Shown: positions 14,458 to 53,307 of the stretch, piece after piece
Position numbering within the stretch: position 1 is the stretch's first letter
Layout of the letters: each line of letters begins with the position of its first letter
IMG/VR virus record: IMGVR_UViG_3300036901_000131
DNA: 61,443 nt
Source of the DNA: a virus
Direction: 5' to 3' (one strand)
Notes under the pieces: generated by a model
What the model saw: the letters and a program-made list of their open reading frames with translations, nothing else
What the model was told of the DNA's origin: nothing
Database searches by the model: none
Position numbers and translations under genes: made by a program

Positions 14458-14826
14458 TCACTTTTGGGAAGAGCGGCTTTGCTCGGCCCAGTATTTCGCT
14501 GCGGCCTCTGTGTTATCTCCGAACAAAATGTCATTGACCGTCACGCGTGTGAGAATTCGTTGGAAAATATCCCGTAACACTTTTTGACTCTCGGTCGGTG
14601 GCGGCGGCGGATTACGCAAGGTGATGACATTCTCGGTGCCCTCCATCACCACATATTTCTCAGCGAACTCGGCTTCCGTCATCGCGTAAGGAAACCCGCG
14701 CGTGGCATAGATCATGTATGTGGTCTCACAGGCATCGCACGTCACACGCACGAACTTTCCATAGCAACCTTCGGGAACTTCCCACATATGCAACTTACCG
14801 CAGTTCACGCAATCACCGGTTATCAT
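14458..14826 (-). CDS. Cys-rich zinc-finger-like protein
   Basis: 122 aa with CVNCGK…CYGKFVRVTCDAC (CxxC…CxxC). The antisense plus-strand ORFs are rejected. Confidence 0.4.
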   Translation of the reverse strand: MITGDCVNCGKLHMWEVPEGCYGKFVRVTCDACETTYMIYATRGFPYAMTEAEFAEKYVVMEGTENVITLRNPPPPPTESQKVLRDIFQRILTRVTVNDILFGDNTEAAAKYWAEQSRSSQK

Positions 14827-14828
14827 CT

Positions 14829-15188
14829 TCAGAACCTTTCAGCGTTCCTGAACGCTTCTGTCTTACCATCAGCCAGCACGAATGTCACACTGTCATAATC
14901 GTACTCGAACGCGAGATTGACCTCGCGCGTGTTGTTCTTGATGTAGCGCACCCAGATCGACCACTTGCCCTGAATGTTGTTGAACAACCATCGGTTCAGC
15001 AGACTGACAGGATGCGGAATCTCGGTGACGATGAACCGATGTCGGCTCCAGTCGAGCGGGATGATACCGCGATGCCATCGATCAGCGAGATCATCCGGAT
15101 CGAACTCAAGTCCGGTGAAACAGACCTTGGAGGGAATCAATTGCTGATCACAAAAACAGTCTTCATGTTTGGTTTTGGCCCGAACCAA
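14829..15188 (-). CDS. hypothetical protein
   Basis: 119-aa ORF co-directional with the operon. The overlapping plus-strand 189-aa ORF has antisense-like composition. Confidence 0.35.
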   Translation of the reverse strand: MVRAKTKHEDCFCDQQLIPSKVCFTGLEFDPDDLADRWHRGIIPLDWSRHRFIVTEIPHPVSLLNRWLFNNIQGKWSIWVRYIKNNTREVNLAFEYDYDSVTFVLADGKTEAFRNAERF

Positions 15189-15225
15189 GCGTCATCAACT
15201 AATATGCTTTTGCATTCGGCGACCG

Positions 15226-15474
15226 TCATCCGGCGCAACTTTCCAGGGAGTTCATCCGAGCGTCGAGACGATTTTCGACATCGGTGATGTCCTGTTGCAG
15301 GCGATTTTCAAGGTCGTTGATGTCCTGCTGGAGGAGGGATATCTCTTCTTGAAGGCCGGAAACATCCAATTCGAGGTCGCCAATCTTCTCTTGTTGGCGT
15401 GCGTTTTCTTCTTGCAGTTCCTCGAAGTTGTAATTCAGGAATGCAAAATCTTCGATGGTGTCAATTCTATTCAT
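15226..15474 (-). CDS. coiled-coil protein
   Basis: Start trimmed to the internal ATG at 15474 (MNRIDTIEDF…), which lies 2 nt downstream of the VWA-protein stop codon (15467..15469). Heptad-like repeats DINDLENRLQQDITDVENRLD. Confidence 0.35.
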   Translation of the reverse strand: MNRIDTIEDFAFLNYNFEELQEENARQQEKIGDLELDVSGLQEEISLLQQDINDLENRLQQDITDVENRLDARMNSLESCAG

Positions 15475-41566: not shown

Positions 41567-41729
41567 GAAACTCTCCTAAGGTCTGATCGAACTATATAGC
41601 ATAGATTTCGCCCCCGTCAACCCTATTTTCAAAATTGAAAGAATCATTGTTGACTTCGGCCCTCTCGTACCCTTATTTTAAAAATGAAAATAGGGTTTGG
41701 TGGTCAGTCACCTTCCCGAGGAGACGGCG

Positions 41730-42767
41730 ATGACAGACGTAAGTACCTTATCTGGTGAGCAAATTCTCGCCATCCCGGCGTTCGAGCCGGAGCGATTGTT
41801 CGCCACGCCGGACCTGATGCCAGCCAGATACAAGGAACTTGCTCGACGGTGGCATCCTGATCTCCCAAGAGGAAACGAAGAAGTATTCAAGCATATCTCC
41901 ATCCTGCATGACCAGGCGAAGCATCTCATAGATACCGACAATTGGCAGATACCAGGCGAATTCTCATTCGTTACTGATGATGGCAAACGCTACACATTGA
42001 AATACTTCAAAATGTTCGAATTCGAGCTAGGTAAAGCCTATCTCAGCGAGACCCGCGTGACCTACGTGATTCGTAACGAATTCGCCGATCTGGTCGAGAA
42101 CGCGAAAAGAACGATCAGTGGATTGGAGTTTCCCGACAAAGAAACCGAAGATGTGATGCGGCGCTATTTGCCGGTCATCAAGGAAATGTTCAAGACGAAC
42201 GACAGTATCATCCTGATGATCGAGAAGCCAGCCGATCTCATACGCATGCGTGATCTCCTCGATCATCAGGGCGGTCAGATCGATCCGAAACACGTGGCCT
42301 GGATGGTGAGCCGGATGCTCAATCACGCCAGCTATCTTGAGGTGACGAAGTTATCTCATAACGATTTTTCGTTGGATACGCTGTTCGTATGCCCAGAGCA
42401 TCACACGATCTGCGTCCTCGGCGGATGGTGGTACGCGACGAAGATTGGCGAGAAACTGTCAGCGATGCCGCAGCGAACCATCAACAACGCGCCGAGTGAC
42501 GTGATCCATAGCAAAGAAGCGTCCGTGAGCATCGACGCGGAGTTAGTAAGACTAACCGGACGGGAATTGTTGGGCAATGCCAACGGCATTCATCTGACGA
42601 CCGGAACGATACCAGCGCCAATGGTCAACTGGCTGCGGCTCGCGAGCCGAGGCAGCCCGGTGAAAGACTACAGAGAATGGCGTGAGAAAACCCTGATGGA
42701 TAGTTTTGGACCGCGCAAGTTCATCAAGATGAACGTTGCAACTCCGCAAGTATATCCACCACTGTAA
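41730..42767 (+). CDS. J-domain protein fused to a protein-kinase-like (probably atypical or pseudo-kinase) domain
   Basis: N-terminus YKELARRWHPDLPRGNEEVFKHISILHDQ contains the HPD J-domain signature. The C-terminal MLNHASYLEVTKLSHNDFSLDTLFVCPEHHTICVLGGWWYA resembles kinase subdomains VIb-VII (…HRDLKxxNIL…DFG…) with non-canonical residues. Start set at MTDV (41730) with GAGGAG upstream. Confidence 0.55.
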   Translation: MTDVSTLSGEQILAIPAFEPERLFATPDLMPARYKELARRWHPDLPRGNEEVFKHISILHDQAKHLIDTDNWQIPGEFSFVTDDGKRYTLKYFKMFEFELGKAYLSETRVTYVIRNEFADLVENAKRTISGLEFPDKETEDVMRRYLPVIKEMFKTNDSIILMIEKPADLIRMRDLLDHQGGQIDPKHVAWMVSRMLNHASYLEVTKLSHNDFSLDTLFVCPEHHTICVLGGWWYATKIGEKLSAMPQRTINNAPSDVIHSKEASVSIDAELVRLTGRELLGNANGIHLTTGTIPAPMVNWLRLASRGSPVKDYREWREKTLMDSFGPRKFIKMNVATPQVYPPL

Positions 42768-42836: not shown

Positions 42837-43760
42837 ATGGGTGGCGCATCATTCGATCCCGGTCACTGGGCCTCATACTCAAAGGCGAAAGTAGCCGGGA
42901 AACCAACCGCAGCGGTATTCACGTCGCGTGGACTCAAGGAGAGTCTTGATCCGAAAAAGATGAAGAACATGCTTCGCGAATCCTGCGATGATGATGTCTG
43001 TCCGGAATCGATGCCAATCATCATCGGTCTGGATGAAACCGGCTCGATGGGCATGATACCGGATTACATGATCCGTACCGGATTTCCAAAATTGTTCGAG
43101 GAAATCTACGCCCGCAAGCCGATCAAACATCCGCACATCATGTTCATGGGCATCGGTGACGCGGAAGTCGATCAGGTTCCGGTACAGGTCAGTCAGTTCG
43201 AATCCGGCATGCGATTGGCGGATCAGTTGATCGACATGTATCTCGAAGGAAACGGCGGCGGCAACAATCACGAGGGCTACACGATGCCCTGGTATGTCGC
43301 GTCGATGCACACGAAGATCGATTGTTTCGATAAGCGTGGCAAGAAAGGCTACCTGATCACGGTCGGTGACGAGGAACCCAATCCGATCCTGTACCGCAAG
43401 GATATCCTGCGGTCGCTTGGCGTCGCTCCGGAAACTGATCTGACAGCGAAACAGCTTCTCGATATGGCGAGCAAGATGTATCACGTGTTTCATGTCATCG
43501 TCGAACAAGGTAGTTATGCTCATTCGCATCCGGCACAGGTGAAAAAGGCGTGGACCGAATTGCTTGGTGAGCGGGTGCTTCCCTTGTCGGATTACACCAA
43601 TCTGAGCGAGGTGATCGTATCCGCGATACAACGAAACGAAGGAGCTTCGTACGACGCCGTGGTGAAAAGCTGGACCGGTGCCACGTCACTGGTCGTCGCG
43701 AGAGCGATTGGCAGCATGATCACGACGCCAACCGGTAACGGTGGAGTTGTTCGCTTCTGA
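42837..43760 (+). CDS. VWA-like domain protein
   Basis: PIIIGLDETGSMG resembles the MIDAS motif (D-x-S/T-x-S) at the start of a Rossmann-like beta-alpha pattern. The antisense 250-aa ORF is rejected. Confidence 0.5.
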   Translation: MGGASFDPGHWASYSKAKVAGKPTAAVFTSRGLKESLDPKKMKNMLRESCDDDVCPESMPIIIGLDETGSMGMIPDYMIRTGFPKLFEEIYARKPIKHPHIMFMGIGDAEVDQVPVQVSQFESGMRLADQLIDMYLEGNGGGNNHEGYTMPWYVASMHTKIDCFDKRGKKGYLITVGDEEPNPILYRKDILRSLGVAPETDLTAKQLLDMASKMYHVFHVIVEQGSYAHSHPAQVKKAWTELLGERVLPLSDYTNLSEVIVSAIQRNEGASYDAVVKSWTGATSLVVARAIGSMITTPTGNGGVVRF

Positions 43761-44422: not shown

Positions 44423-44820
44423 ATTTGGGGAGTTAGACCTCCCCTTTTCAGCTTTTTCCAGTCCAGTTCCCACATTACGATGAGGTGATAGCCTAGCGAT
44501 CTACATGAACAACGGCTGCCTCAGACAGAAATTGCAGGGTCGTTTTTCTACTGTGGTTATTGGCGGTCATAGCTCCGCACCGCTTACACCCTTTGCCCTT
44601 AAGATGTGATCTTGGCTGCTGAGGTATGACGCCGTGAATTGGGCATCCAACATAGATTATTTCCTGTGACCCTCTGTACACTGACATGCTATAGTCATAT
44701 CTAGTTCCATGCACAATCATGGCCGACTCTATGAATTTCTGTGTCGTTAATTTTAAGCCCATTGACTTTCTCACATACTGTGAAAGTATACACGAGATGA
44801 AAGGCGGAGTGGAGGACATT

Positions 44821-45984
44821 ATGCGTGCAGTTGCTGTCATCGGAGCCAACTTTGGTGATGAGGGGAAAGGTCTAATTACCGATTATCTCTCTACACCAAC
44901 AAGTATGGTTGTAAGGTCGAGCGGCGGTAGTAATGCAGGACATACAGTCGTCAGGGATGGCAAGCGGCATATCTTTCGTCATGTCGGCAGCGGCGCGCTG
45001 AAAGGAGCCGCTACCTTCCTGTCGGAATATTTCATCAACAACCCGATCCTGTATTTCAAGGAGCTTGAAATTCTCAAAGGGATCGGTGTCGAACCGCTGG
45101 TGTTCGCCGATCCTGGTGGTATGGTGACGACACCATGGGACATGATGATCAACACTATCCTGGAGGAAAGTCGCGGCGGACATCGACACGGCAGTTGTGG
45201 CGTTGGCATCAATGAAACGATGAAACGAAACACGGGCTTTCATCCGTTTCGGGTCATCCATCTGTTCGACGCGAGGAACATTTGCCGATACATCATGAGC
45301 GATTATGTTCCGAATCGCCTGCGGGAGCTTGAGCTTGAGCCGTCGCCGGTCTGGCGGGAACGACTGACCTCACATCACATTCTCGACGCATTCGTTGAGG
45401 AGTGTGAACAATACCTCAAATCGATTCACATCACATCGCTCAAACAGGCCATCGTCATGAACGGCTCCGACGACATCGTGTTCGAGGGGGCGCAGGGATT
45501 GTTGCTGGATCAGGACCACTATTGGTTCCCCCACGTCACGCATTCCAAGACCGGATTGCATAACGTGTTGGAGATCGCGAAGCAGAATGACGGAATCGGC
45601 GAGATCGCCGTGGTATATGTCTCGCGCGCTTATGCCACGCGACATGGAGCCGGTCCCTTTCCGAGGGAACATTTGTCCTTGTCATATGAGGATGAGACCA
45701 ACGTGCCCAACCGTTGGCAGGGTTCGCTTCGTTTCGGTCATCTCGACCTGAGTTTGCTGGCGCAATCCATTCGCCATGATCTTTGGGCATTCCAAGGAAA
45801 ACCGATACTGGCGATGACCTGTCTCGATCAGGTGGCCGATCCAGTCGAATTCTGGCAGGACGGCATGCTGCAAAGCGAACCCAGAGTCGTCATGGTACGA
45901 CGCGCCTGCGCGTCAATCGAGGCGAAGCAATCACTGATCAGTTTCGGCCCATCGGCCAAGGATGTAATTCCCTTCAAATATTGA
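44821..45984 (+). CDS. purA: adenylosuccinate synthetase homolog (PurA family; candidate PurZ-like)
   Basis: AVIGANFGDEGKGLITDYL and VVRSSGGSNAGHTVV align with E. coli PurA GTQWGDEGKGKIVDLL and VVRYQGGHNAGHTLV, with His replaced by Ser. GSCGVGINETMKR matches the IGTTGRGIGPAYEDK region. Start set at MRAV (44821), preceded by GGAGTGGAGGA. Confidence 0.8.
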   Translation: MRAVAVIGANFGDEGKGLITDYLSTPTSMVVRSSGGSNAGHTVVRDGKRHIFRHVGSGALKGAATFLSEYFINNPILYFKELEILKGIGVEPLVFADPGGMVTTPWDMMINTILEESRGGHRHGSCGVGINETMKRNTGFHPFRVIHLFDARNICRYIMSDYVPNRLRELELEPSPVWRERLTSHHILDAFVEECEQYLKSIHITSLKQAIVMNGSDDIVFEGAQGLLLDQDHYWFPHVTHSKTGLHNVLEIAKQNDGIGEIAVVYVSRAYATRHGAGPFPREHLSLSYEDETNVPNRWQGSLRFGHLDLSLLAQSIRHDLWAFQGKPILAMTCLDQVADPVEFWQDGMLQSEPRVVMVRRACASIEAKQSLISFGPSAKDVIPFKY

Positions 45985-46143
45985 TTCAGTGGGTTCTCGC
46001 CGGTTTACCTGAGAATACTTCTGCGAACGGGCGACGTGCGCCACCCGTATTGCGGGCAAAAATCCCGGCGATTTTCTTGACAGATTCAGATTCCGTGTTA
46101 TGACTCCCAGTGTCAAACATTTTTTTGGGAGTTTCAACACGAT

Positions 46144-47919
46144 ATGGCGAGAACACAGACACGAAGGAAGGCGGCTGCGAAGAAGTCAGCGCGGCGCAAG
46201 ACGCCCGTGAAGGCGGCAGTGAAGCGCAAGGCTGCCGTGAAGGTCGCCGCGAAGAAAGCCGCTCCGGCACGCAAAACCGCTCCAGCCCGTAAGAGCGCGC
46301 CGCCGAAAGTCGCGCGAAAGGCCGCGCCGAAGGCTGCTCGCGCTCCGCGCGTTGTCGCCGCTGACGGTCAGGTGGTCAAACCGGCCAAATCGCCAAGCAA
46401 ACGAGCCCTGGACGCGCAATTGCAGGAACGTCGCCTGTCCCTGGCCGCGCAGTTGCATGACAAGGAGCCCGAACGCGATACCTCCATGATCATCGTCGAT
46501 TATCATCAGCTTCGCACGGAAGCGATTCGCGCCATGGGCGGCGATATCGAGTCGGCGGACGCGAGCGATCTGGTTGAGGTCGAGGGCGTGATGGTCGTGC
46601 GCGGTTCGTTCGCCACCGAGGCCAAAGGTCAGGCCGTGGTCAAGAAAATCCGGGAGCAGAAGAAGGGCGCGGGTACCGTTTTCAACGTGCATCCGCTGGA
46701 TTTTCACATCCTGACCGGCGACCAGCGCATCAATACCCGCGATTTCTCGACACCGGCCATGATCAAGCGGGTCGCTGAACTGACCTATGACATCGCGGCC
46801 AACGGTGTCCAGTTGGAGCTTAAGGCGTTCCAGCGCAACGATCTGCTGTATGGCATGAGCGGCGAAACGCGTTGGCGTGCCACGGCTCATGCGCATGTTC
46901 TCAAATCGCGTGGCCTCGTGGAAGACGCGCCGCCCAGCATTCCGGTCATCCTGATCGCGAAGGGCAAGGACGATGCGTTCATCCAGTTGGATGTGATCAA
47001 ACAGAACATGGTCTTCCCGCAGCCGCCGCTGGAAATCGCCGAGGGCATCGCCAAGTCATTCCATCTCGGCAACACGGTGGAAAAAATCGCGACATACATG
47101 AACGAGACCAAAGCCTGGGTTGAAGGCCGAATCGCGATCATGGGGATGCCCGCCCGCGTCAAGAACATGATTCGGGAAGGCGAAGTTACCATCCCGTTCG
47201 CGTGGCGCGTCTGGGAAGAGGAGAAGCAGGACCCCGATCAAACGGTCGCGACTCTTGAATTCGCTGTCCGCACGGCGAAAGCCCAGGGTTCGACACGCGC
47301 CATGCCTCGGCATCTGCCGCCGAAGGCCGACGCGCCTCGCAAAACGACCGCGAGAGCGCCAGCGCCAGCCGAGGCCACGAACGACACGAGCACCACGACG
47401 GATGAAGTGGCGGCTTTTGGCACGGCCTTGCGGGAGGGCATGGAGACCGGCGCGGCCTCGGCTGTCGGGGTCGACACGGTGACCGACCCCGGTGCGAGCA
47501 CGGTCACCGTCGATGCTTCGGCGATGGAAAAACTGGCGGCACGGCTTCAGGAAGTCGAAGCCGAACTGGACCTGTTCAAACAACAGGACGCGAAGAAGGA
47601 TGCCATCATCGCGGAGAAGGATGCCAAAATCGCGGCGGTGACCAAGGAACGCGATCAAGCCAACAAGCGGGCCGATGAATCAAAAGCCAAAGAGCAAGAA
47701 GCCACAGCCAGGGCCGACAAATCCGATGCAGCACAAGCCAGGTTGACGAAGCACTTCGATAATATCGCCGGGGTGCTGGCCAATTGCCCGCTCAAGAACC
47801 CGGAAGATGGCACGGTTGGAATGTTCCCCTCGCTTGAGAATTTCATCAATCCGGTTGCATCAACCTTGGGCATCGATGTTCCGGAGTGGGCGAAGCCGGA
47901 GGAAGAAGAGGCGGCGTAA
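46144..47919 (+). CDS. histone H1-like/AlgP-like basic N-terminal DNA-binding protein with C-terminal coiled coil
   Basis: First about 75 residues are K/A/R/P repeats (RRKAAAKKSARRKTPVKAAVKRKAAVKVAAKKAAPARKTAPARKSAPPKVARKAAPKAARAPR). C-terminal heptad-rich EAELDLFKQQDAKKDAIIAEKDAKIAAVTKERDQANKRADESKAKE. Antisense ORFs in this GC-rich gene are rejected. Confidence 0.5.
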   Translation: MARTQTRRKAAAKKSARRKTPVKAAVKRKAAVKVAAKKAAPARKTAPARKSAPPKVARKAAPKAARAPRVVAADGQVVKPAKSPSKRALDAQLQERRLSLAAQLHDKEPERDTSMIIVDYHQLRTEAIRAMGGDIESADASDLVEVEGVMVVRGSFATEAKGQAVVKKIREQKKGAGTVFNVHPLDFHILTGDQRINTRDFSTPAMIKRVAELTYDIAANGVQLELKAFQRNDLLYGMSGETRWRATAHAHVLKSRGLVEDAPPSIPVILIAKGKDDAFIQLDVIKQNMVFPQPPLEIAEGIAKSFHLGNTVEKIATYMNETKAWVEGRIAIMGMPARVKNMIREGEVTIPFAWRVWEEEKQDPDQTVATLEFAVRTAKAQGSTRAMPRHLPPKADAPRKTTARAPAPAEATNDTSTTTDEVAAFGTALREGMETGAASAVGVDTVTDPGASTVTVDASAMEKLAARLQEVEAELDLFKQQDAKKDAIIAEKDAKIAAVTKERDQANKRADESKAKEQEATARADKSDAAQARLTKHFDNIAGVLANCPLKNPEDGTVGMFPSLENFINPVASTLGIDVPEWAKPEEEEAA

Positions 47920-47972
47920 TCACACACGAACCATCGAAGCCCTCGGGATCGCTCCCGAGGGCTTTCTTTTTG

Positions 47973-48500
47973 TCAAGCTCTCCAGAATTCGACGATCCGA
48001 TCCCACCAATCCTTGGGCGCACCCTCGGCGATGGCGATCAAGCCTCCCCGCTTACGAACCTCAGGATTCCAGATGCCGAGGCAGGCTGTATTGGGCCACC
48101 GGGATTGATCTCCGGCGACGCTGTTATAATCAACATCGAGCACCGGGTCCCTGTCGAAATATTGCAGGGAAAATTTGGCTCCCGGAACCGCGCGTTGAAC
48201 CTGGAGCGCCAACCTAACCAGTGGCGTCGGAGCGGGACTCGCATCAACGGCGTGCCTAGCCGTCGAGCCCCAATTGGACAGGAATTTCGCCAATGATGTG
48301 CCTCTGACATGATAAGCCCGTTTCCATTTAAACTGATCGAGAGGCCGACCATTGGCGTTCTCAGCGATCCACGCGAGCCGATATTTCTCCTTGTAATCGT
48401 CCACGACTGATCGCGGAATCGGGGTGATGCCCATTCTCGTCAGAGGATCGACAATCGGTACGGTATCAAAACTCTCTATGACGTTGGTATCGCGCGGCAT
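47973..48500 (-). CDS. paralog family protein (member 1 of 3)
   Basis: Shares DPLTRMGITPIP, F-x-L-x-YF-x-RDPVL-x-V-x-Y and CLGIWD with 49774..50274 and 50285..50815. Start set at the ATG aligned with the paralogs. Confidence 0.45.
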   Translation of the reverse strand: MPRDTNVIESFDTVPIVDPLTRMGITPIPRSVVDDYKEKYRLAWIAENANGRPLDQFKWKRAYHVRGTSLAKFLSNWGSTARHAVDASPAPTPLVRLALQVQRAVPGAKFSLQYFDRDPVLDVDYNSVAGDQSRWPNTACLGIWNPEVRKRGGLIAIAEGAPKDWWDRIVEFWRA

Positions 48501-48904
48501 GGCCGAGAACTCCATGATTCGTTGAGACAATCGAAGCATATGAGATTTCGGGCGGGACGGCAATCCTCACTTGACGCTCCATGGGGAATATTCCGATGAT
48601 GCCTAAGGAAAAGGAGCCATCCGCATGTTAGACGCCATCTCCAAACCCTCGCTGGTCGAAATAATTCAATGGGGCGGCATTCTCGCTGCCTAGCGACAAG
48701 AAATGAACAAAGCCATGCTGTCGCGCATCCGCCGCTCGACCTCGTAAATGTCCTGCGCCCCGCGCAAGAATTCCTCCTGCGGGCAGTATGGCTTCCACTG
48801 ATAATGACGAATGATGATGGTCGATTGATGACGCGGAAATAGGTGATTTAAGATACGAATGATCATGCACACTATTTAACATTTACTTCGCACTCGCAAC
48901 AATC

Positions 48905-49773: not shown

Positions 49774-50274
49774 TCAGGCGGCGATGGCGAGGATCACACC
49801 CTGATCCCATATCGCCAGACAGTCCCTGTGCTTTCGCCCGTCCAATGAATAGACGACGTACAGCACGGGGTCCTTCTCGAAATAATCCAACTCGAAGGTG
49901 GTCTCGATCCTGCCTTTCACCAGTTCTTCCTGAACCCGTTCTGCCAGGTCAATGATGTCACCTGGCGTTTCGACACGATCCATGTGGTTCCCGAGCCCGT
50001 CGATTGGGAATTGTAACCATTGCCGGAGCGTGAGTCCCACGATCATGGGTAGCCCCATCTGAATGATGAGGTCACTGGTGATGTTACCTTCCGCATCGTA
50101 ATAGATGGTCATCCATCCGATTGAGTTGCGGTTTACAACGCTCACGTATTGATAGTGAATGGAAAACCATTCCTCATAGTCGGCCTTGTGCTTCGTTACG
50201 ACATCTTCGGGAATCGGCGTGATGCCCATTTTTGTCAGAGGATCAAGAATTTTTCCTGCTGCGTCGAGTGGCAT
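49774..50274 (-). CDS. paralog family protein (member 2 of 3)
   Basis: MPLDAAGKILDPLTKMGITPIPEDVV…FELDYFEKDPVLYVVY…CLAIWD. Start trimmed to the ATG aligned with the paralogs. Confidence 0.45.
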   Translation of the reverse strand: MPLDAAGKILDPLTKMGITPIPEDVVTKHKADYEEWFSIHYQYVSVVNRNSIGWMTIYYDAEGNITSDLIIQMGLPMIVGLTLRQWLQFPIDGLGNHMDRVETPGDIIDLAERVQEELVKGRIETTFELDYFEKDPVLYVVYSLDGRKHRDCLAIWDQGVILAIAA

Positions 50275-50284
50275 GGGAACCTCC

Positions 50285-50815
50285 TCAATGGTCGGCGATG
50301 GCGACAGTCTTGCCGGTGTCGAATCCTCCGCTACCAGGCACCTTGTCCCAAATCCCCAGACAGGCTTTGCGCTTTCCCCCGTCGAATGGATATACGGCAT
50401 ACAACACGGGGTCTCTTTCGAAATAATCCAACTGGAAGGTGGTATCGGGGATTTCGCGATGAACCCGTTCCGCCAGTTCAACGATTTCCGAGGGAGCGCC
50501 GGAATGATCATCGGTGTTGCCCAATCCGTAGATTGGCTTAGCTAACCAAGTTTTGAGCGTTTCATGGCGTTCGTATCCATGATAACCTGTTGGACACAAA
50601 TCACTGGTTATCACCCGATCCGAGGCATACCAATAGATCGTCGCCCATCTGAACATACGGGACAAACCACGACGGCTTGGGTTCGCGCAGAAAAAGGCTT
50701 CTGTATACTCGGCCTTGTGTCGAGCGACGACATCTTCGGGAATCGGCGTGATGCCCAATTTCACCAGAGGATCGAGAACTACTGAACTTTCGCGGCCTGC
50801 TGCGTCGAGTGGCAT
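50285..50815 (-). CDS. paralog family protein (member 3 of 3)
   Basis: MPLDAAGRESSVVLDPLVKLGITPIPEDVV…FQLDYFERDPVLYAVY…CLGIWD. GGAG upstream of the trimmed start. Confidence 0.45.
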   Translation of the reverse strand: MPLDAAGRESSVVLDPLVKLGITPIPEDVVARHKAEYTEAFFCANPSRRGLSRMFRWATIYWYASDRVITSDLCPTGYHGYERHETLKTWLAKPIYGLGNTDDHSGAPSEIVELAERVHREIPDTTFQLDYFERDPVLYAVYPFDGGKRKACLGIWDKVPGSGGFDTGKTVAIADH

Positions 50816-51468
50816 GGCGGAGACTCCCTGTTTTTTCCTAACGTTGATGACGGAGTCGCTTATAGCCGAGTGGAAGGAGGGAGGCAACTCATGAAAGTCG
50901 GTATCAAGCTCGACTCGGAGCACACTGAGGAAAGGCTAATTCCACCAAAACAGTGCTGATTATCTCCACTTGATCGGATCGATTCATCACAGGGATACAT
51001 GCAGGGCAATGTTCAATTCGTCTCGTGCGCGATCAATTGGGCGAAAAACGATTCCTCAAATGAAAGTGCTTTGGAGCTAATTCGGTTGGTCAAAGAGCAC
51101 GCCTGAAACGAGTTGGGAGAGAGCTTTTGGCCCTCTCCCTTCTGTTTCAAGGCTTACGGCTCACGCCGCCTCTTAAAGCCCATCCTTTCAGATTCTGCTC
51201 AGCCGCTCACGCAGCGAGAGCAAATTCCTGGGGAAGAATGTCATTATCGTTGACATCTCAGGTTTTGGACTGATCTTGGGTCGTACCTTACCCCGTGGCC
51301 ACATATCGTCCTTACTACCGAAATCGATCCTAATTTCACCCCCATAGGTCTCCAAGGGTGGAGATGCGGAGGAATGGTGGAGGTGCGGACTTGTTGCAGG
51401 TCCGGTCTTTCAGTCTATGCCACTCAGCATCTACCACGATAGTCCTGCGGTTTCCCGCCTGACAACTT

Positions 51469-52131: not shown

Positions 52132-52259
52132 CCTAAATTAAGGGCAATCGGAAATTCCACCATCGAACTAAAAACTTTGAACAGAACTTCATGTTGACAG
52201 AAAACACTTACAATCCTCATGCGATTGGGCTACAAGTAAGAACTTTCTTGGAGAATGAT

Positions 52260-52715
52260 ATGACGACATTGGATAGAATCAGAGCCGACCGAGACATCGC
52301 GAGAAAGGCTCATGACCCGGTGATCAGCAACATACTGGGCATCGTGATCTCGGACTGTGAAAACAAGGCGCATGGATCGCCGGGTAAGGGTTCGCATGAA
52401 CTGACGGAAGCCGACATCCTCGGTGTGGTTCAGGGCTGGGCGAAGAAAACAAGCGAGACGATGGCTCTGATCAAGGACCGTCCGGAACGGGTTGGTGAAT
52501 ACGTCAAGATGGGAACCGAGGCGGCGGTGCTGGCGGCGTATCTTCCCACCGAGAGGTTGTCGGCGGAGAGATTGCGAGAAATCGCCACTGAACAGAAAGG
52601 TCTCGACATAGGAAAGATCATGCAATACTTGAAGACCGAATATCCTGGTCAATATGACGCGAGAGAAGCCTCCGTCATCATCAAGGATGTACTTGTCGAG
52701 ACATCCAAGGAATAG
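52260..52715 (+). CDS. GatB/YqeY domain protein
   Basis: LREIATEQKGLDIGKIMQYLKTEYPGQYDAREASVIIKDVL resembles the YqeY C-terminus (…[32 protein letters not shown]). Start set at MTTLDRIR. Confidence 0.55.
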   Translation: MTTLDRIRADRDIARKAHDPVISNILGIVISDCENKAHGSPGKGSHELTEADILGVVQGWAKKTSETMALIKDRPERVGEYVKMGTEAAVLAAYLPTERLSAERLREIATEQKGLDIGKIMQYLKTEYPGQYDAREASVIIKDVLVETSKE

Positions 52716-52875
52716 AACACGCGGAGGCGGAGGACTGATCCCCATCGGTCAGTCCTTCGTCTATACTAATAACATCAGCAAATTTAGTTCATGTTTGACA
52801 AACGATGAAATACCCTTAGTGTAGTCTGATTGTTGTTCAAATGGAGTGCACGAAGTGGCCGAAATCGATTCCCTC

Positions 52876-53307
52876 ATGACCCATGTCGCGAAAATCGTGA
52901 CGGCGTATGCCTCGAACCATCAAGTTGACGATCTTTCAGCCGTGGTCAAGAGCGTTAACGCGACGATGCGAAGTTTGAACGGCGGCGCGTCGAACGGGAG
53001 TAGCGAACCGGTGGCTCCGGCCAGACAACCACTTCAACCAGCCGTGCCACCACATAAATCCGTGTTCTCGGATTACATCGTCTGTCTGGAAGACGGCGAA
53101 AAACTGAAAATGCTAAAACGGCATCTCAGGACTTCTCATGGTATGACACCGGAGCAGTATCGTCAGAAGTGGAATTTGCCAGGCCACTATCCGATGGTGT
53201 GCCCGAATTACGCCGCGCAGCGAAGCGACCTCGCCAAAGAGCTTGGGCTCGGAACCATTGACAAGACCCCAAAGACGGTCGCCAGACGGGCGCGGAAGGC
53301 GGCTTAA
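52876..53307 (+). CDS. MucR/Ros family transcriptional regulator
   Basis: SDYIVCLEDGEKLKMLKRHLRTSHGMTPEQYRQKWNLPGHYPMVCPNYAAQRSDLAKELGLG closely matches the Ros/MucR core (IVCLECGKKFKTLKRHL…HGLTPEEYREKWGLP.DYPMVAPNYS..RS.LAK.LGLG). The second zinc-ligand Cys is Asp here. Confidence 0.7.
   Translation: MTHVAKIVTAYASNHQVDDLSAVVKSVNATMRSLNGGASNGSSEPVAPARQPLQPAVPPHKSVFSDYIVCLEDGEKLKMLKRHLRTSHGMTPEQYRQKWNLPGHYPMVCPNYAAQRSDLAKELGLGTIDKTPKTVARRARKAA

What the first reader, a model, noticed from the sequence alone, without database searches (positions are those of the whole stretch)
46144..47919. Histone H1/AlgP-like basic-repeat protein with long coiled-coil tail
About 75 residues of (K/R)(A/P)A(A/V)K-type repeats are followed by a globular middle and a C-terminal heptad-rich region. 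This may be a phage-encoded nucleoid-associated or DNA-compaction protein. It could relate to genome packaging, host nucleoid remodelling or shielding DNA, and is interesting next to a possibly modified genome (PurA/PurZ gene 160 bp upstream).
Basis: seen in the sequence. Interest (0 to 1): 0.5.

Follow-up and report, generated by a model that had tools for sequence, protein, structure and literature searches.

The report
Orphan phage ParB with polybasic tail
The gene encodes a phage version of the bacterial DNA-clamping protein ParB, with no ParA partner found, that carries a long positively charged, histone-tail-like N-terminus; it is an unusual variant of a well-known protein family, and its role in infection is unknown.

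Summary
The ORF (46144-47919, +, 591 aa) is real, and so is the basic tail. Residues 1-88 are 85% K/R/A/P/V with net charge about +29. The tail is translated: homologs from other contigs keep the M-A-R/K start, a homologous RBS and a basic tail.

It is a full ParB/KorB/Noc-type core, a ParB/Srx nucleotide-binding domain with GETRWRA box II followed by an HTH. This is shown by profile hits to solved ParBs, a confident AlphaFold model (core pLDDT above 95), and Foldseek matches to KorB, Noc and Spo0J at probability 1.00.

The "coiled-coil tail" is an insertion found only in this protein. About 6 heptads are followed by a charged helix, inside a disordered linker that leads to a small conserved C-terminal domain.

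No ParA gene and no ParA-binding motif were found, and no parS array. The gene has its own conserved sigma70-type promoter and a strong terminator.

The window comes from a relative of jumbo Rhizobiales phages (Phosso, Atu_ph07). The subfamily is known only from metagenomes.

The neighbouring PurA-like gene keeps Asp13, so it lacks the PurZ signature and gives no evidence for a Z-genome.

Best reading: an orphan ParB-type, probably CTP-gated, DNA clamp whose polybasic tail adds non-specific DNA binding. It is a new variant of a known kind, of moderate interest.

The parts
46059..46075 (+). Inverted repeat AAAATC-N5-GATTTT directly upstream of the -35 box; candidate operator (speculative)
   Evidence: 3 matches with at most 1 mismatch in the window against 0.2 expected, but only this copy is perfect. 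L001 and L002 carry a different inverted repeat (GAATTC-N3-GAATTC) at the homologous position, once per locus.
46077..46104 (+). Sigma70-type promoter: TTGACA, 16-nt spacer ending in TGT, TATGAC
   Evidence: Conserved in position and form (TTGACA-N16-TAnnAn, with TGn in three of the four) in the window, L001, L002 and L005 despite about 43% mean column identity in the intergenic alignment. The pattern is enriched in the window (5 against 0.77 expected). The tool's stricter consensus scan did not call it.
46127..46131 (+). Shine-Dalgarno GGGAG, 12 nt before the ATG
   Evidence: the block GGAGTTTCAAC is shared with L001, where it lies 7 nt before the ATG.
46144..46407 (+). aa 1-88: polybasic K/R/A/P/V-rich tail with no predicted secondary structure (H1/AlgP-like in composition only)
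   Evidence: composition, +24 per 60 aa; no secondary structure; block-mean pLDDT 48-67 over aa 1-80; basic tails in 17 of 118 relatives, concentrated in the nearest 25; this one is the longest.
46408..46476 (+). aa 89-111: helix (aa 86-106), conserved among the closest homologs, linking tail and core
46477..46677 (+). aa 112-178: family-specific N-terminal subdomain (motif D-x-S-x-[VI]-I-x-D-x-x-x-L-R; beta-hairpin insertion aa 133-155 only in the five closest members)
   Evidence: pLDDT above 93.
46678..47007 (+). aa 179-288: ParB/Srx-type nucleotide-binding domain. Box I N197-T-R199-D-F201; box II G240-E-T-R243-W-R-A246; box III position Q287-N288
   Evidence: alignment to M. xanthus ParB: GERRWRA against GETRWRA; Foldseek; R199, G240 and R243 invariant in 118/118; N288 115/118; N197 116/118.
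47008..47328 (+). aa 289-395: ParB-type HTH DNA-binding domain, ending in the conserved [VA]-M-P-[KR]-H motif (aa 386-390)
   Evidence: HTH_ParB, weak; 107/118 relatives hit HTH_ParB; KorB and Noc DNA-binding domains, TM 0.6-0.7; H390 invariant in the 23-member alignment and conserved in 69/118.
47329..47514 (+). aa 396-457: T/A/P/G-rich linker with no predicted secondary structure
   Evidence: block-mean pLDDT 42-58 over aa 401-460; the linker varies in length across the family.
47515..47781 (+). aa 458-546: one long helix. aa 458 to about 499 heptad coiled coil; aa 500-533 charged helical spacer; aa 534-546 conserved family helix. aa ~456-533 is an insertion found only in this protein
   Evidence: insertion absent from 22 relatives; 21-nt duplication; heptad analysis; identical in an independent JGI fragment.
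47782..47919 (+). aa 547-591 plus stop: small conserved C-terminal domain ((E/D)DG-beta hairpin and a helix) and an acidic tail ending ...PEWAKPEEEEAA
   Evidence: block-mean pLDDT 84-88 over aa 541-580, falling at the end; terminal AA in 20/118 relatives, 11 of the nearest 25.
47936..47973 (+). Intrinsic terminator: 13-bp stem (8 GC pairs), 4-nt loop, T-run; lies between convergent genes

Best explanation
The gene encodes an orphan member of the ParB/KorB/Noc superfamily, made by a relative of the jumbo Rhizobiales phages.

Shown: it has the full ParB architecture. That is a ParB/Srx nucleotide-binding domain with the pocket-defining residues of boxes I and II, a ParB-type HTH, a flexible linker and a small C-terminal domain. 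It also has an 88-residue polybasic N-terminal tail with no predicted structure, and a coiled-coil/charged-helix insertion found only in this protein. No ParA gene and no ParA-binding peptide were found. The gene is a single transcription unit with a conserved host-type promoter and its own terminator.

Inferred mechanism: like ParB, Noc, KorB and VirB, the protein dimerises through its C-terminal part. In this particular protein the coiled coil would reinforce and lengthen that dimer. It recognises a specific site on phage DNA through the HTH, binds a nucleoside triphosphate (most likely CTP), closes its N-terminal gate around the DNA and slides away from the loading site. The polybasic tail lies outside the clamp and adds sequence-independent DNA affinity. 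Loaded clamps could therefore hold on longer and bridge or compact neighbouring DNA.

Inferred role: this would build a nucleoprotein complex on the phage genome early in infection, for genome organisation or long-range transcription control, and not for ParA-driven partition.

Because the box III glutamate is replaced by Gln (Q287), nucleotide hydrolysis may be slow and the clamp long-lived. This last point is speculative.
For: Homology:
- PHROG 1033 'ParB-like partition protein', E = 5e-10.
- The core profile hits solved M. xanthus ParB, Caulobacter ParB, KorB, Spo0J and Noc, with GERRWRA aligned to GETRWRA.
- An exhaustive HMMER search gives 2134 relatives. Of the 118 aligned, 111 hit TIGR00180 parB_part, 107 HTH_ParB and 51 ParB_N.

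Structure:
- AF2 model with mean pLDDT 82.5 and core above 95.
- Foldseek to KorB 8qa9 (E = 3e-8, TM 0.66 on the target), Noc, Spo0J and ParB-CDP structures, all at probability 1.00.
- Many orphan phage ParB/Spo0J-HTH proteins in BFVD.

Pocket residues: R199, G240 and R243 are invariant in 118/118; N288 in 115/118.

Orphan status:
- No deviant Walker A (KGGxGK[ST]) in any frame of the 61 kb.
- No [LIF]G[KR]G[LIF] motif in this protein or in any of the 118 relatives.

Tail:
- Composition and charge; no predicted structure.
- Conserved as a clade feature with variable length and sequence, as expected for a charge-driven module.

Expression: promoter conserved across four loci; terminator.

Phage context: topoisomerase II nearest to Phosso (469 kb) and Atu_ph07 (490 kb); tail-fibre and T4 gp15-like genes beside distant family members.

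Precedent: CTP-gated clamps outside partition, and widespread orphan ParBs on mobile elements (10.1101/2023.06.01.543266 and 10.1101/2025.10.10.680097).
Against: - No nucleotide binding, DNA binding or dimerisation was measured or can be measured here.
- Box II has Thr in place of the first Arg of GERR. This is typical of the branch: position 242 is C/T/S in 93/118.
- Box III lacks the Glu. The ParB fold can bind ATP or GTP instead of CTP (10.1101/2025.10.10.680097).
- No recurring parS-like palindrome was found in the 61 kb or near the gene in related loci. The promoter-proximal inverted repeats are single-copy and differ between loci.
- The C-terminal domain has no detectable homology to the ParB dimerisation domain.
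- Only about 61 kb of a genome that may exceed 400 kb was seen, so a ParA or a parS array could lie elsewhere.
- The window protein itself falls below Pfam and NCBIfam thresholds. Membership rests on profile, transitive and structural evidence.
Confidence: 0.6

Rival explanations
1. KorB/VirB-like transcription regulator. The clamp loads at an operator, for example the inverted repeat next to its own -35 box, and slides. It either represses phage promoters at a distance or counteracts silencing of phage DNA by host MucR, the H-NS-like silencer of alphaproteobacteria, perhaps together with the phage-encoded MucR homolog nearby.
For: The best structural match is KorB. A Burkholderia phage relative is annotated as a transcriptional regulator. 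An inverted repeat abuts the -35 box at the homologous position in the window, L001 and L002. A Ros/MucR gene lies 0.5-5 kb downstream of the ParB-like gene in the window, L002, L005, L008/L009 and L011, and this link persists after PurA adjacency is lost. VirB is a ParB-type CTP clamp that counteracts H-NS (10.1101/2023.06.01.543266). MucR is a DNA-bridging xenogeneic silencer (PMC9410896, PMC10746212).
Against: The inverted repeats differ in sequence between loci and are single-copy and unproven. The MucR linkage may be plain synteny among related phages. No KorA-like partner was identified. This reading overlaps the best explanation, since it shares the same molecular mechanism and differs only in the biological output.
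Confidence: 0.2
2. Genuine partition or tethering protein for a plasmid-like carrier state (pseudolysogeny) of the jumbo phage. Either a ParA is encoded outside the window, or no ParA is used and the HTH/clamp holds phage DNA while the polybasic tail sticks to the host nucleoid, so the genome is inherited by 'hitch-hiking'.
For: The full ParB architecture including the HTH is present. 111/118 relatives match the partition-protein model TIGR00180. Only a fraction of the genome is visible. A non-specific DNA-binding tail is what a tether would need.
Against: There is no ParA in 61 kb. No ParA-binding motif occurs in any family member. There is no parS cluster. The neighbours are early and DNA-metabolism genes of a T4-like lytic programme. 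None of the related loci shows an adjacent ParA. The nearest cultured relatives, Phosso and Atu_ph07, lack a BLAST-detectable homolog.
Confidence: 0.1
3. Accessory factor for a DNA or nucleotide-modification pathway, in the way the ParB-like partners of phage thymidine dioxygenases or DpdB/DndB work, coupled functionally to the adjacent PurA-like enzyme.
For: PurA-like followed by ParB-like is conserved in the window, L001, L002, L003 and L005, down to about 31% identity. ParB-like proteins can activate phage DNA-modifying enzymes (10.1101/2025.08.14.668559).
Against: Those accessory ParBs lack the DNA-binding domain, whereas this one has a full HTH. The PurA-like enzyme keeps Asp13 and lacks the PurZ signature. 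It acts on nucleotides, not on DNA. The adjacency is lost in L008 and L011. RHph_TM30 and Va1 have the PurA-like gene without a ParB beside it. The two genes are separate transcription units here, since the ParB-like gene has its own promoter. No modification-enzyme family was found in the scanned neighbours.
Confidence: 0.05
4. Simple histone-like or nucleoid-associated compaction protein, or a packaged DNA-binding protein. Function would reside in the basic tail, and the ParB core would be a degenerate scaffold.
For: Extreme basic composition. Analogy with AlgP, HupB/HupS tails and the lysine repeats of actinobacterial TopA (PMC9239181, PMC7398561).
Against: The ParB core is the most strongly conserved part, with invariant pocket residues across 118 relatives, so it is not degenerate. 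The tail is the variable, clade-restricted part (17/118). There is no homology to H1, AlgP or HU. The gene sits among early and DNA-metabolism genes, not among structural genes.
Confidence: 0.05

Closest known systems
KorB of IncP plasmid RK2 (PDB 8qa8, 8qa9, 1r71)
   Same: Best structural match over the ParB/Srx domain plus HTH (Foldseek E = 3e-8, TM 0.66 on the target; profile hit). KorB is a CTP-dependent DNA-sliding clamp that works as a long-range transcription repressor (the function is from my own knowledge of the KorB literature; the PDB entry titles call it a transcriptional repressor).
   Different: Sequence identity is only about 16-17%. KorB has an IncC (ParA) partner and a KorA partner; no partner was found here. 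KorB has no polybasic H1-like tail and no coiled-coil insertion. The C-terminal domains show no detectable similarity.
Chromosomal ParB/Spo0J and Noc (PDB 7bnk/7bnr, 6sdk, 6t1f, 1vz0, 7nfu, 7ol9)
   Same: Same two-domain core. Box II GERRxRA corresponds to GETRWRA. The box I Arg and the box III Asn are conserved. Noc is a precedent for an orphan ParB whose extra N-terminal element (a membrane-binding helix) gives the clamp a second binding activity (10.1101/2023.06.01.543266, and own knowledge).
   Different: There is no ParA-binding peptide and no adjacent parA. Box II lacks the first Arg, and the box III Glu is Gln. There are an additional N-terminal subdomain (aa 112-178), an 88-residue polybasic tail, a long linker with a helical insertion, and a C-terminal domain with no recognisable family.
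Orphan ParB-like proteins of phages (PHROG 1033; e.g. Burkholderia phages AH2 and BcepNazgul, Agrobacterium phage Milano, Klebsiella siphoviruses, Vibrio phage VpV262)
   Same: ParB N-domain plus HTH encoded without a listed ParA partner in phage genomes. These are the sequence relatives through which the family connects to ParB. Their functions are untested.
   Different: They are mostly 250-390 aa without a long basic tail. tblastn of this protein's core finds none of them in 50,697 phage records. The tailed subfamily is known only from metagenomic contigs.
VirB of Shigella flexneri
   Same: A ParB-type CTP-dependent clamp that is not used for partition. It loads at a specific site and spreads to counteract an H-NS-type silencer (10.1101/2023.06.01.543266). 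The parallel is a phage encoding both this ParB-like protein and a MucR-family gene nearby.
   Different: VirB did not appear among the sequence or structure matches here. The anti-silencing role is only an analogy.
Histone H1-like bacterial tails: AlgP, HupB/HupS C-termini, actinobacterial TopA lysine repeats
   Same: Lys/Ala/Pro-rich basic low-complexity sequence that adds non-specific polyanion (DNA or polyP) binding or processivity to a protein (PMC9239181, PMC7398561, PMC11229371).
   Different: The resemblance is in composition only. There is no homology and no regular tandem repeat. Here the tail is N-terminal and fused to a ParB core, and the literature search found no precedent for that combination.

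Membership tests
ParB/KorB/Noc superfamily (ParB-CTPase fold + HTH) | ParB/Srx N-terminal nucleotide-binding fold | tested here: met
   AF2 core pLDDT above 95. Foldseek probability 1.00 to KorB, Noc, Spo0J and ParB-CDP/CTPgS structures. 51/118 relatives hit Pfam ParB_N.
ParB/KorB/Noc superfamily (ParB-CTPase fold + HTH) | Box II phosphate-binding motif GERRxRA (G and the second R essential) | tested here: met
   G240-E-T-R243-W-R-A246 aligns to GERRWRA of M. xanthus ParB. G240 and R243 are invariant in 118/118. The first Arg is Thr, as in most of this branch.
ParB/KorB/Noc superfamily (ParB-CTPase fold + HTH) | Box I motif ([QN]-x-R) | tested here: met
   N197-T-R199-D-F201; N in 116/118 and R in 118/118.
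ParB/KorB/Noc superfamily (ParB-CTPase fold + HTH) | Box III ENLQR (the Glu is implicated in CTP hydrolysis) | tested here: inconclusive
   N288 is conserved (115/118) but the preceding residue is Q287, not Glu. That column is S/R/D/G/N across the branch. The consequence for hydrolysis cannot be judged from sequence.
ParB/KorB/Noc superfamily (ParB-CTPase fold + HTH) | Central ParB-type helix-turn-helix DNA-binding domain | tested here: met
   Pfam HTH_ParB at aa 295-353, E = 0.013, below the cut-off. 107/118 relatives hit it. Structural matches to the KorB and Noc DNA-binding domains, TM 0.6-0.7.
ParB/KorB/Noc superfamily (ParB-CTPase fold + HTH) | C-terminal dimerisation domain | tested here: inconclusive
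   A small conserved C-terminal domain is predicted (aa 547-590; block-mean pLDDT 84-88 over aa 541-580, falling at the end). It matches no Pfam family or structure. No multimer prediction was available.
ParB/KorB/Noc superfamily (ParB-CTPase fold + HTH) | CTP binding and CTP/DNA-dependent clamp closure | not testable with these tools
   Needs biochemistry. The fold can also bind ATP or GTP (10.1101/2025.10.10.680097).
Canonical ParABS partition system | Adjacent or co-encoded ParA (deviant Walker A ATPase) | tested here: not met
   No KGGxGK[ST] motif in six frames of the 61-kb window. No ParA-like gene appears beside homologs in L001, L002, L003, L005, L008 or L011. The rest of the genome was not seen.
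Canonical ParABS partition system | N-terminal ParA-binding peptide [LIF]G[KR]G[LIF] | tested here: not met
   Absent from this protein and from the first 120 residues of all 118 relatives. The motif definition is from 10.1101/2025.10.10.680097.
Canonical ParABS partition system | Cluster of palindromic parS sites near the gene | tested here: inconclusive
   No recurring palindrome lies near the gene. One 16-18-bp palindrome occurs twice elsewhere. The single inverted repeat at the promoter is unproven. Only 61 kb were searched.
Histone H1 / AlgP-type proteins | Linker-histone globular domain, or membership of the AlgP family | tested here: not met
   No Pfam or NCBIfam hit of that kind.
Histone H1 / AlgP-type proteins | Long regular tandem array of KPAA/AKKA-type repeats | tested here: not met
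   TRF finds only 12-nt periods with 2.2-2.8 copies at 72-80% matches.
Histone H1 / AlgP-type proteins | Lys/Ala/Pro-rich, strongly basic, disordered composition | tested here: met
   85% K/R/A/P/V; 30 K+R against 1 D+E in 88 residues; no predicted secondary structure, block-mean pLDDT 48-67 over aa 1-80.
Phage 5mYOX-associated ParB regulators | ParB nucleotide-binding and C-terminal domains without the DNA-binding domain, encoded next to a 5-methylpyrimidine dioxygenase | tested here: not met
   This protein has a full HTH domain. The neighbours scanned show no dioxygenase family. The definition is from 10.1101/2025.08.14.668559.
   The window enzyme reads GANFGDEGKG. L001, L002, L003 and L005 also keep the Asp. 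The criterion is from PMC12884076 and PMC8515928.

The most novel reading that the evidence does not exclude
A ParA-independent genome tether or anti-silencer built from a ParB clamp. The HTH and nucleotide-gated clamp would hold the jumbo-phage genome while the 88-residue histone-tail-like N-terminus binds other DNA non-specifically. One version: phage DNA is bridged or compacted, or tethered to the host nucleoid, functionally like the chromosome-tethering proteins of eukaryotic episomal viruses. Another version: sliding clamps with polycationic tails displace the MucR silencer from phage DNA. A conserved terminal '...AA' could then limit the protein's lifetime through ClpXP-type proteolysis. 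Either version would be a new functional class of CTP-switch proteins in lytic jumbo phages.
Probability: 0.12. Interest if true: 0.75.

Novelty: new variant of a known kind. Interest (0 to 1): 0.4.

Why it matters
ParB-type CTP switches have only recently been recognised as a general class of DNA-sliding clamps, and the few orphan members studied (Noc, KorB, VirB) each do something different. Orphan ParBs are common in phages, but none has a tested function in a lytic infection. This subfamily adds a clear, testable feature: a long polycationic tail on the outside of the clamp. It is conserved as a feature, with variable length and sequence, in a clade of uncultivated large phages of probable alphaproteobacterial hosts. 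In this protein a lineage-specific coiled-coil spacer is added as well. If the tail gives the clamp DNA-bridging or tethering activity, that would show how a site-specific loader can be turned into a genome-wide organiser or anti-silencer. It would also give a handle on how jumbo phages without a known nucleus-like compartment organise very large replicating genomes. For annotation, the analysis corrects two likely mislabels: 'histone-like protein' for this gene and 'PurZ' for its neighbour.

Tried and rejected
1. megablast and tblastn of the region, the whole protein and the core against 50,697 phage records: no match. Plasmids gave only marginal ParB hits.
2. Word-indexed searches of 5.8 billion clusters found only 2-3 relatives each. 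The low-complexity tail and the divergence limit that method. The exhaustive HMMER search was what opened up the family.
3. The search for related loci failed with the 16-member profile because no stretch was conserved enough. With the 3-member profile it found nothing in IMG/VR.
4. The first structure prediction, with 3 sequences, was poor (pLDDT 51). It was replaced by the 118-sequence model.
5. The palindrome GACGCGCCTGCGCGTC (45899) as a parS candidate: rejected, it does not recur.
6. The palindrome AGCGTTCC[T/G]GAACGCT: only two copies, absent from related loci. Kept only as an aside.
7. The generic sigma70 scan did not call the promoter. Conservation across loci did.
8. The PADLOC hit to DruC (E = 0.001, aa 459-541) was rejected as a coiled-coil artefact.
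9. A Z-genome link was rejected on the Asp13 criterion.
10. A 5mYOX-type modification accessory was rejected because the HTH is present and no dioxygenase neighbour was found.
11. A literature search for Atu_ph07 plus ParB found nothing.
Full report
**1. The observation**

- Tail composition: residues 1-88 contain 18 K, 12 R, 27 A, 9 P, 9 V, one D and no E. That is 85% K/R/A/P/V, with KAAAK, KAAVK and KAAPK motifs.
- Charge: the best 60-residue window has net charge +24. This is the highest of any open frame of at least 100 codons in the 61-kb window. The other high scorers are Arg-rich frames that look spurious, several of them overlapping identified genes in another frame.
- Repeat structure: at DNA level the periodicity is weak, with 12-nt units, 2.2-2.8 copies and 72-80% matches. 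This is low-complexity composition and not an AlgP-like tandem array.
- Local base composition: GC rises to 0.60 with a strong A-over-T skew. This fits the GCN and AAG codon usage of such a protein.

**2. Is the tail translated?**

- The close homologs P0001, P0002, P0004 and P0005 come from other assemblies and are 42-44% identical over the full-length alignment (about 48-52% over the aligned core). The two closest start M-A-R/K, and all four carry a basic tail of different length. All indels are in frame.
- They share the motif RV[VI][AV]ADG[QR] inside the tail region and a helix just after it.
- The RBS block GGAGTTTCAAC precedes the ATG in both the window and L001.
- The next in-frame ATG is M115. 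Starting there would remove the helix at aa 86-106 and the motif D-x-S-x-[VI]-I-x-D-x-x-x-L-R.
- The identical 591-aa product is called on an independent Logan contig. A JGI fragment matches aa 284-591 at 100% identity.

**3. What the middle is**

The "globular middle" is a ParB.

- Sequence evidence: PHROGs gives "ParB-like partition protein" (phrog_1033, E = 5e-10), and Pfam gives a sub-threshold HTH_ParB hit. A profile of the core hits solved M. xanthus ParB (E = 6.5e-5), Caulobacter ParB, KorB, T. thermophilus Spo0J and Noc. In that alignment GERRWRA lines up with GETRWRA at aa 240-246.
- Family size: an exhaustive HMMER search of 1.84 billion representatives finds 2134 relatives at E <= 1e-3. 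Of the 118 I aligned, 111 hit TIGR00180 (ParB/RepB/Spo0J), 100 hit the Noc model, 107 hit HTH_ParB and 51 hit ParB_N.
- Structure: with that alignment AlphaFold gives mean pLDDT 82.5, and above 95 for aa 112-395. Foldseek matches KorB (8qa9, E = 3e-8, TM 0.66 on the target), Noc, Spo0J and the ParB-CDP/CTPgS structures at probability 1.00.
- Pocket residues: R199 (box I), G240 and R243 (box II) are invariant in 118/118. N288 (box III) is found in 115/118 and N197 in 116/118.
- Deviations from chromosomal ParB: Thr replaces the first Arg of GERR, which is typical of this branch. Gln287 replaces the Glu of ENLQR.

**4. Full anatomy**

| Residues | Feature |
|---|---|
| 1-88 | Polybasic tail with no predicted secondary structure |
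| 86-106 | Helix |
| 112-178 | Family-specific N-terminal subdomain; its beta-hairpin insertion (aa 133-155) occurs only in the five closest members |
| 179-288 | ParB/Srx nucleotide-binding domain |
| 289-395 | HTH domain, ending in a conserved [VA]-M-P-[KR]-H motif |
| 396-457 | T/A/P-rich linker with no predicted secondary structure |
| 458-546 | One long predicted helix |
| 547-591 | Small conserved C-terminal domain and acidic tail ending ...EEEEAA |

The long helix is not a family trait. Residues ~456-533 are an insertion absent from all 22 relatives in alignment A3. Only aa 458 to about 499 keep a heptad register (a/d occupancy 0.62-0.75). Residues 500-533 contain no strong hydrophobic residue and are more than half charged, so they read as a helical spacer. 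A 21-nt duplication shows how part of it arose.

**5. Context**

- Element type: the window encodes T4-type topoisomerase II subunits, an RNA ligase, AAA ATPases and an HNH endonuclease. Its topoisomerase large subunit is closest to Sinorhizobium phage Phosso (469 kb, 52%) and Agrobacterium phage Atu_ph07 (490 kb, 48%). The window therefore comes from a relative of the jumbo Rhizobiales phages.
- Distribution: no deposited phage has a BLAST-detectable homolog of this ParB core. The tailed subfamily is known only from metagenomic contigs. Long basic tails occur in 17 of 118 relatives, concentrated among the nearest 25, and this protein has the longest.
- Synteny with PurA: the block [~350 aa][~307 aa, phrog_2971][PurA-like][ParB-like] is conserved in L001, L002, L003 and L005. 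It is lost in L008 and L011.
- Synteny with MucR: a Ros/MucR-family gene is the more persistent neighbour. It lies 0.5-5 kb downstream in the window (52846-53307, E = 1.5e-43) and in L002, L005, L008/L009 and L011.
- No ParA: there is no ParA-type deviant Walker A anywhere in the window. No ParA-binding motif occurs in this protein or in any of the 118 relatives.
- No parS array: no recurrent parS-like palindrome was found.

**6. Expression signals**

- Promoter: the upstream intergenic regions of the window, L001, L002 and L005 share a TTGACA, a 16-nt spacer and TAnnAn, with a TGn before the -10 in three of the four. This holds although the rest of the spacer regions have diverged. The window copy is at 46077-46104. 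I infer a real promoter read by host RNA polymerase, and so probably early expression.
- Candidate operator: directly upstream of the -35 the window has AAAATC-N5-GATTTT (46059-46075). L001 and L002 have GAATTC-N3-GAATTC at the homologous place, once per locus. This may be an operator but is unproven.
- Terminator: a 13-bp-stem intrinsic terminator follows the stop codon (47936-47965).
- The gene is therefore its own transcription unit, separate from the PurA-like gene.

**7. The "modified genome" idea**

Phage PurZ enzymes have Ser in place of the catalytic Asp13 of PurA in 100% of sequences (PMC12884076, PMC8515928). The window enzyme reads GANFGDEGKG, and the syntenic homologs also keep the Asp. 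It carries the PurA-type catalytic residue and lacks the PurZ signature, so it gives no evidence for 2-aminoadenine DNA.

The ParB-like partners of phage thymidine dioxygenases lack the DNA-binding domain (10.1101/2025.08.14.668559). This protein has that domain.

**8. Mechanism**

Shown:
- ParB fold, pocket residues and HTH.
- A tail and a linker with no predicted structure.
- A coiled-coil insertion found only in this protein.
- No ParA gene or ParA-binding motif found.
- Its own promoter and terminator.

Inferred, from how ParB, Noc, KorB and VirB work (10.1101/2023.06.01.543266 and 10.1101/2025.10.10.680097):
- The protein forms a dimer held by the C-terminal part.
- It loads at a specific site through the HTH.
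- It binds a nucleoside triphosphate, probably CTP, closes its N-gate around DNA and slides.
- The polybasic tail projects from the outside of the N-gate. It should add sequence-independent DNA affinity, giving a longer residence time and bridging or compaction in trans.
- The Gln at the box III Glu position may slow hydrolysis. This is speculative.

The biological output remains open. It could be genome organisation, KorB/VirB-like transcription control (possibly against MucR silencing; PMC9410896, PMC10746212), or ParA-independent tethering.

**9. Verdict**

It misses the defining ParB core. It treats an insertion found only in this protein as a general feature. It links the gene to a Z-genome that the evidence does not support.
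- This is a new variant (a polybasic-tailed, metagenome-only subfamily) of a known kind (orphan phage ParB-like proteins).
- Interest is moderate. Orphan ParBs are an active and largely uncharacterised area, and the tail is a clean experimental handle. Nothing here contradicts current understanding.

Noticed in passing
window 44719-45984 (probable real start near 44824): The PurA-like gene upstream keeps the catalytic Asp13 (GANFGDEGKG), as do its syntenic homologs in L001, L002, L003 and L005 and those of Rhizobium phage RHph_TM30 and Vibrio phage Va1. It therefore lacks the PurZ signature, although PHROG and RefSeq label such genes '2-aminooxy adenylosuccinate synthetase'.
   Followed up: yes
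window 52846-53307 (+); also L002 14691-15233, L005 16362-16727, L008 13971-14369, L011 3631-4257: A phage-encoded Ros/MucR-family protein (Pfam E = 1.5e-43), a homolog of the H-NS-like xenogeneic silencer of alphaproteobacteria. It lies 0.5-5 kb downstream of the ParB-like gene in five loci, and the link persists where PurA adjacency is lost. It points to an alphaproteobacterial host and possibly to a functional link with the ParB-like protein.
   Followed up: partly
window 47973-48563 (-), 49774-50511 (-), 50285-50923 (-); L001 7300-7800, 8709-9278, 9283-9870; L002 10699-11283: Three paralogous genes (30-50% identity, shared DP[LV][TV]K[ML]GITPIP and DYF[ED][KR]DPVL motifs) sit convergent to or downstream of the ParB-like gene. 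The same family is present in three copies in L001 and at least one in L002. There is no credible Pfam hit and no PHROG or PADLOC hit. The listed ORFs 49774-50511 and 50285-50923 overlap, so their real starts are probably internal.
   Followed up: partly
window 47914-47919 (last two codons) and the C-termini of relatives in alignment A5: The protein ends ...EEEEAA. A terminal 'AA' is found in 20 of 118 relatives and in 11 of the nearest 25, although their C-terminal tails are otherwise unalignable. This may be a ClpXP-type C-terminal degron, as in the ssrA tag or Caulobacter CtrA (own knowledge, not tested).
   Followed up: partly
window 27259-27276 and 14841-14856: An 18-bp perfect palindrome AAGCGTTCCGGAACGCTT lies in the intergenic region next to the 921-aa gene. 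A near-identical 16-bp copy, AGCGTTCCTGAACGCT, lies inside ORF 14718-15287. That is two copies against 0.4 expected; 7 of 100 shuffles reach two. The motif is absent from related loci. Its function is unknown.
   Followed up: partly
window 3755-3793: A second promoter-like site, TTGACAGAATTCAAATCCGTGTTAACC, has a spacer nearly identical to that of the ParB-like promoter (46077-46103). Its -35 box is embedded in the palindrome TGTCAAGcgaaCTTGACA. This suggests a shared class of phage early promoters, possibly co-regulated.
   Followed up: no
window 41697-42767 and 42837-43760 (+): A conserved gene pair (about 350 aa with no family hit, and 307 aa in phrog_2971 of unknown function) precedes the PurA-like gene in the window, L001, L002, L003 and L005. 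A gene of about 300 aa also precedes PurA in Rhizobium phage RHph_TM30 and Vibrio phage Va1. This hints at a functional module with the PurA-like enzyme.
   Followed up: no
window 52191-52715 (+): A YqeY-like gene (GatB/YqeY domain; Pfam E = 1.9e-10; PHROG 'tRNA amidotransferase') lies next to the MucR gene. YqeY genes also lie near the ParB-like gene in L004 and L008.
   Followed up: no
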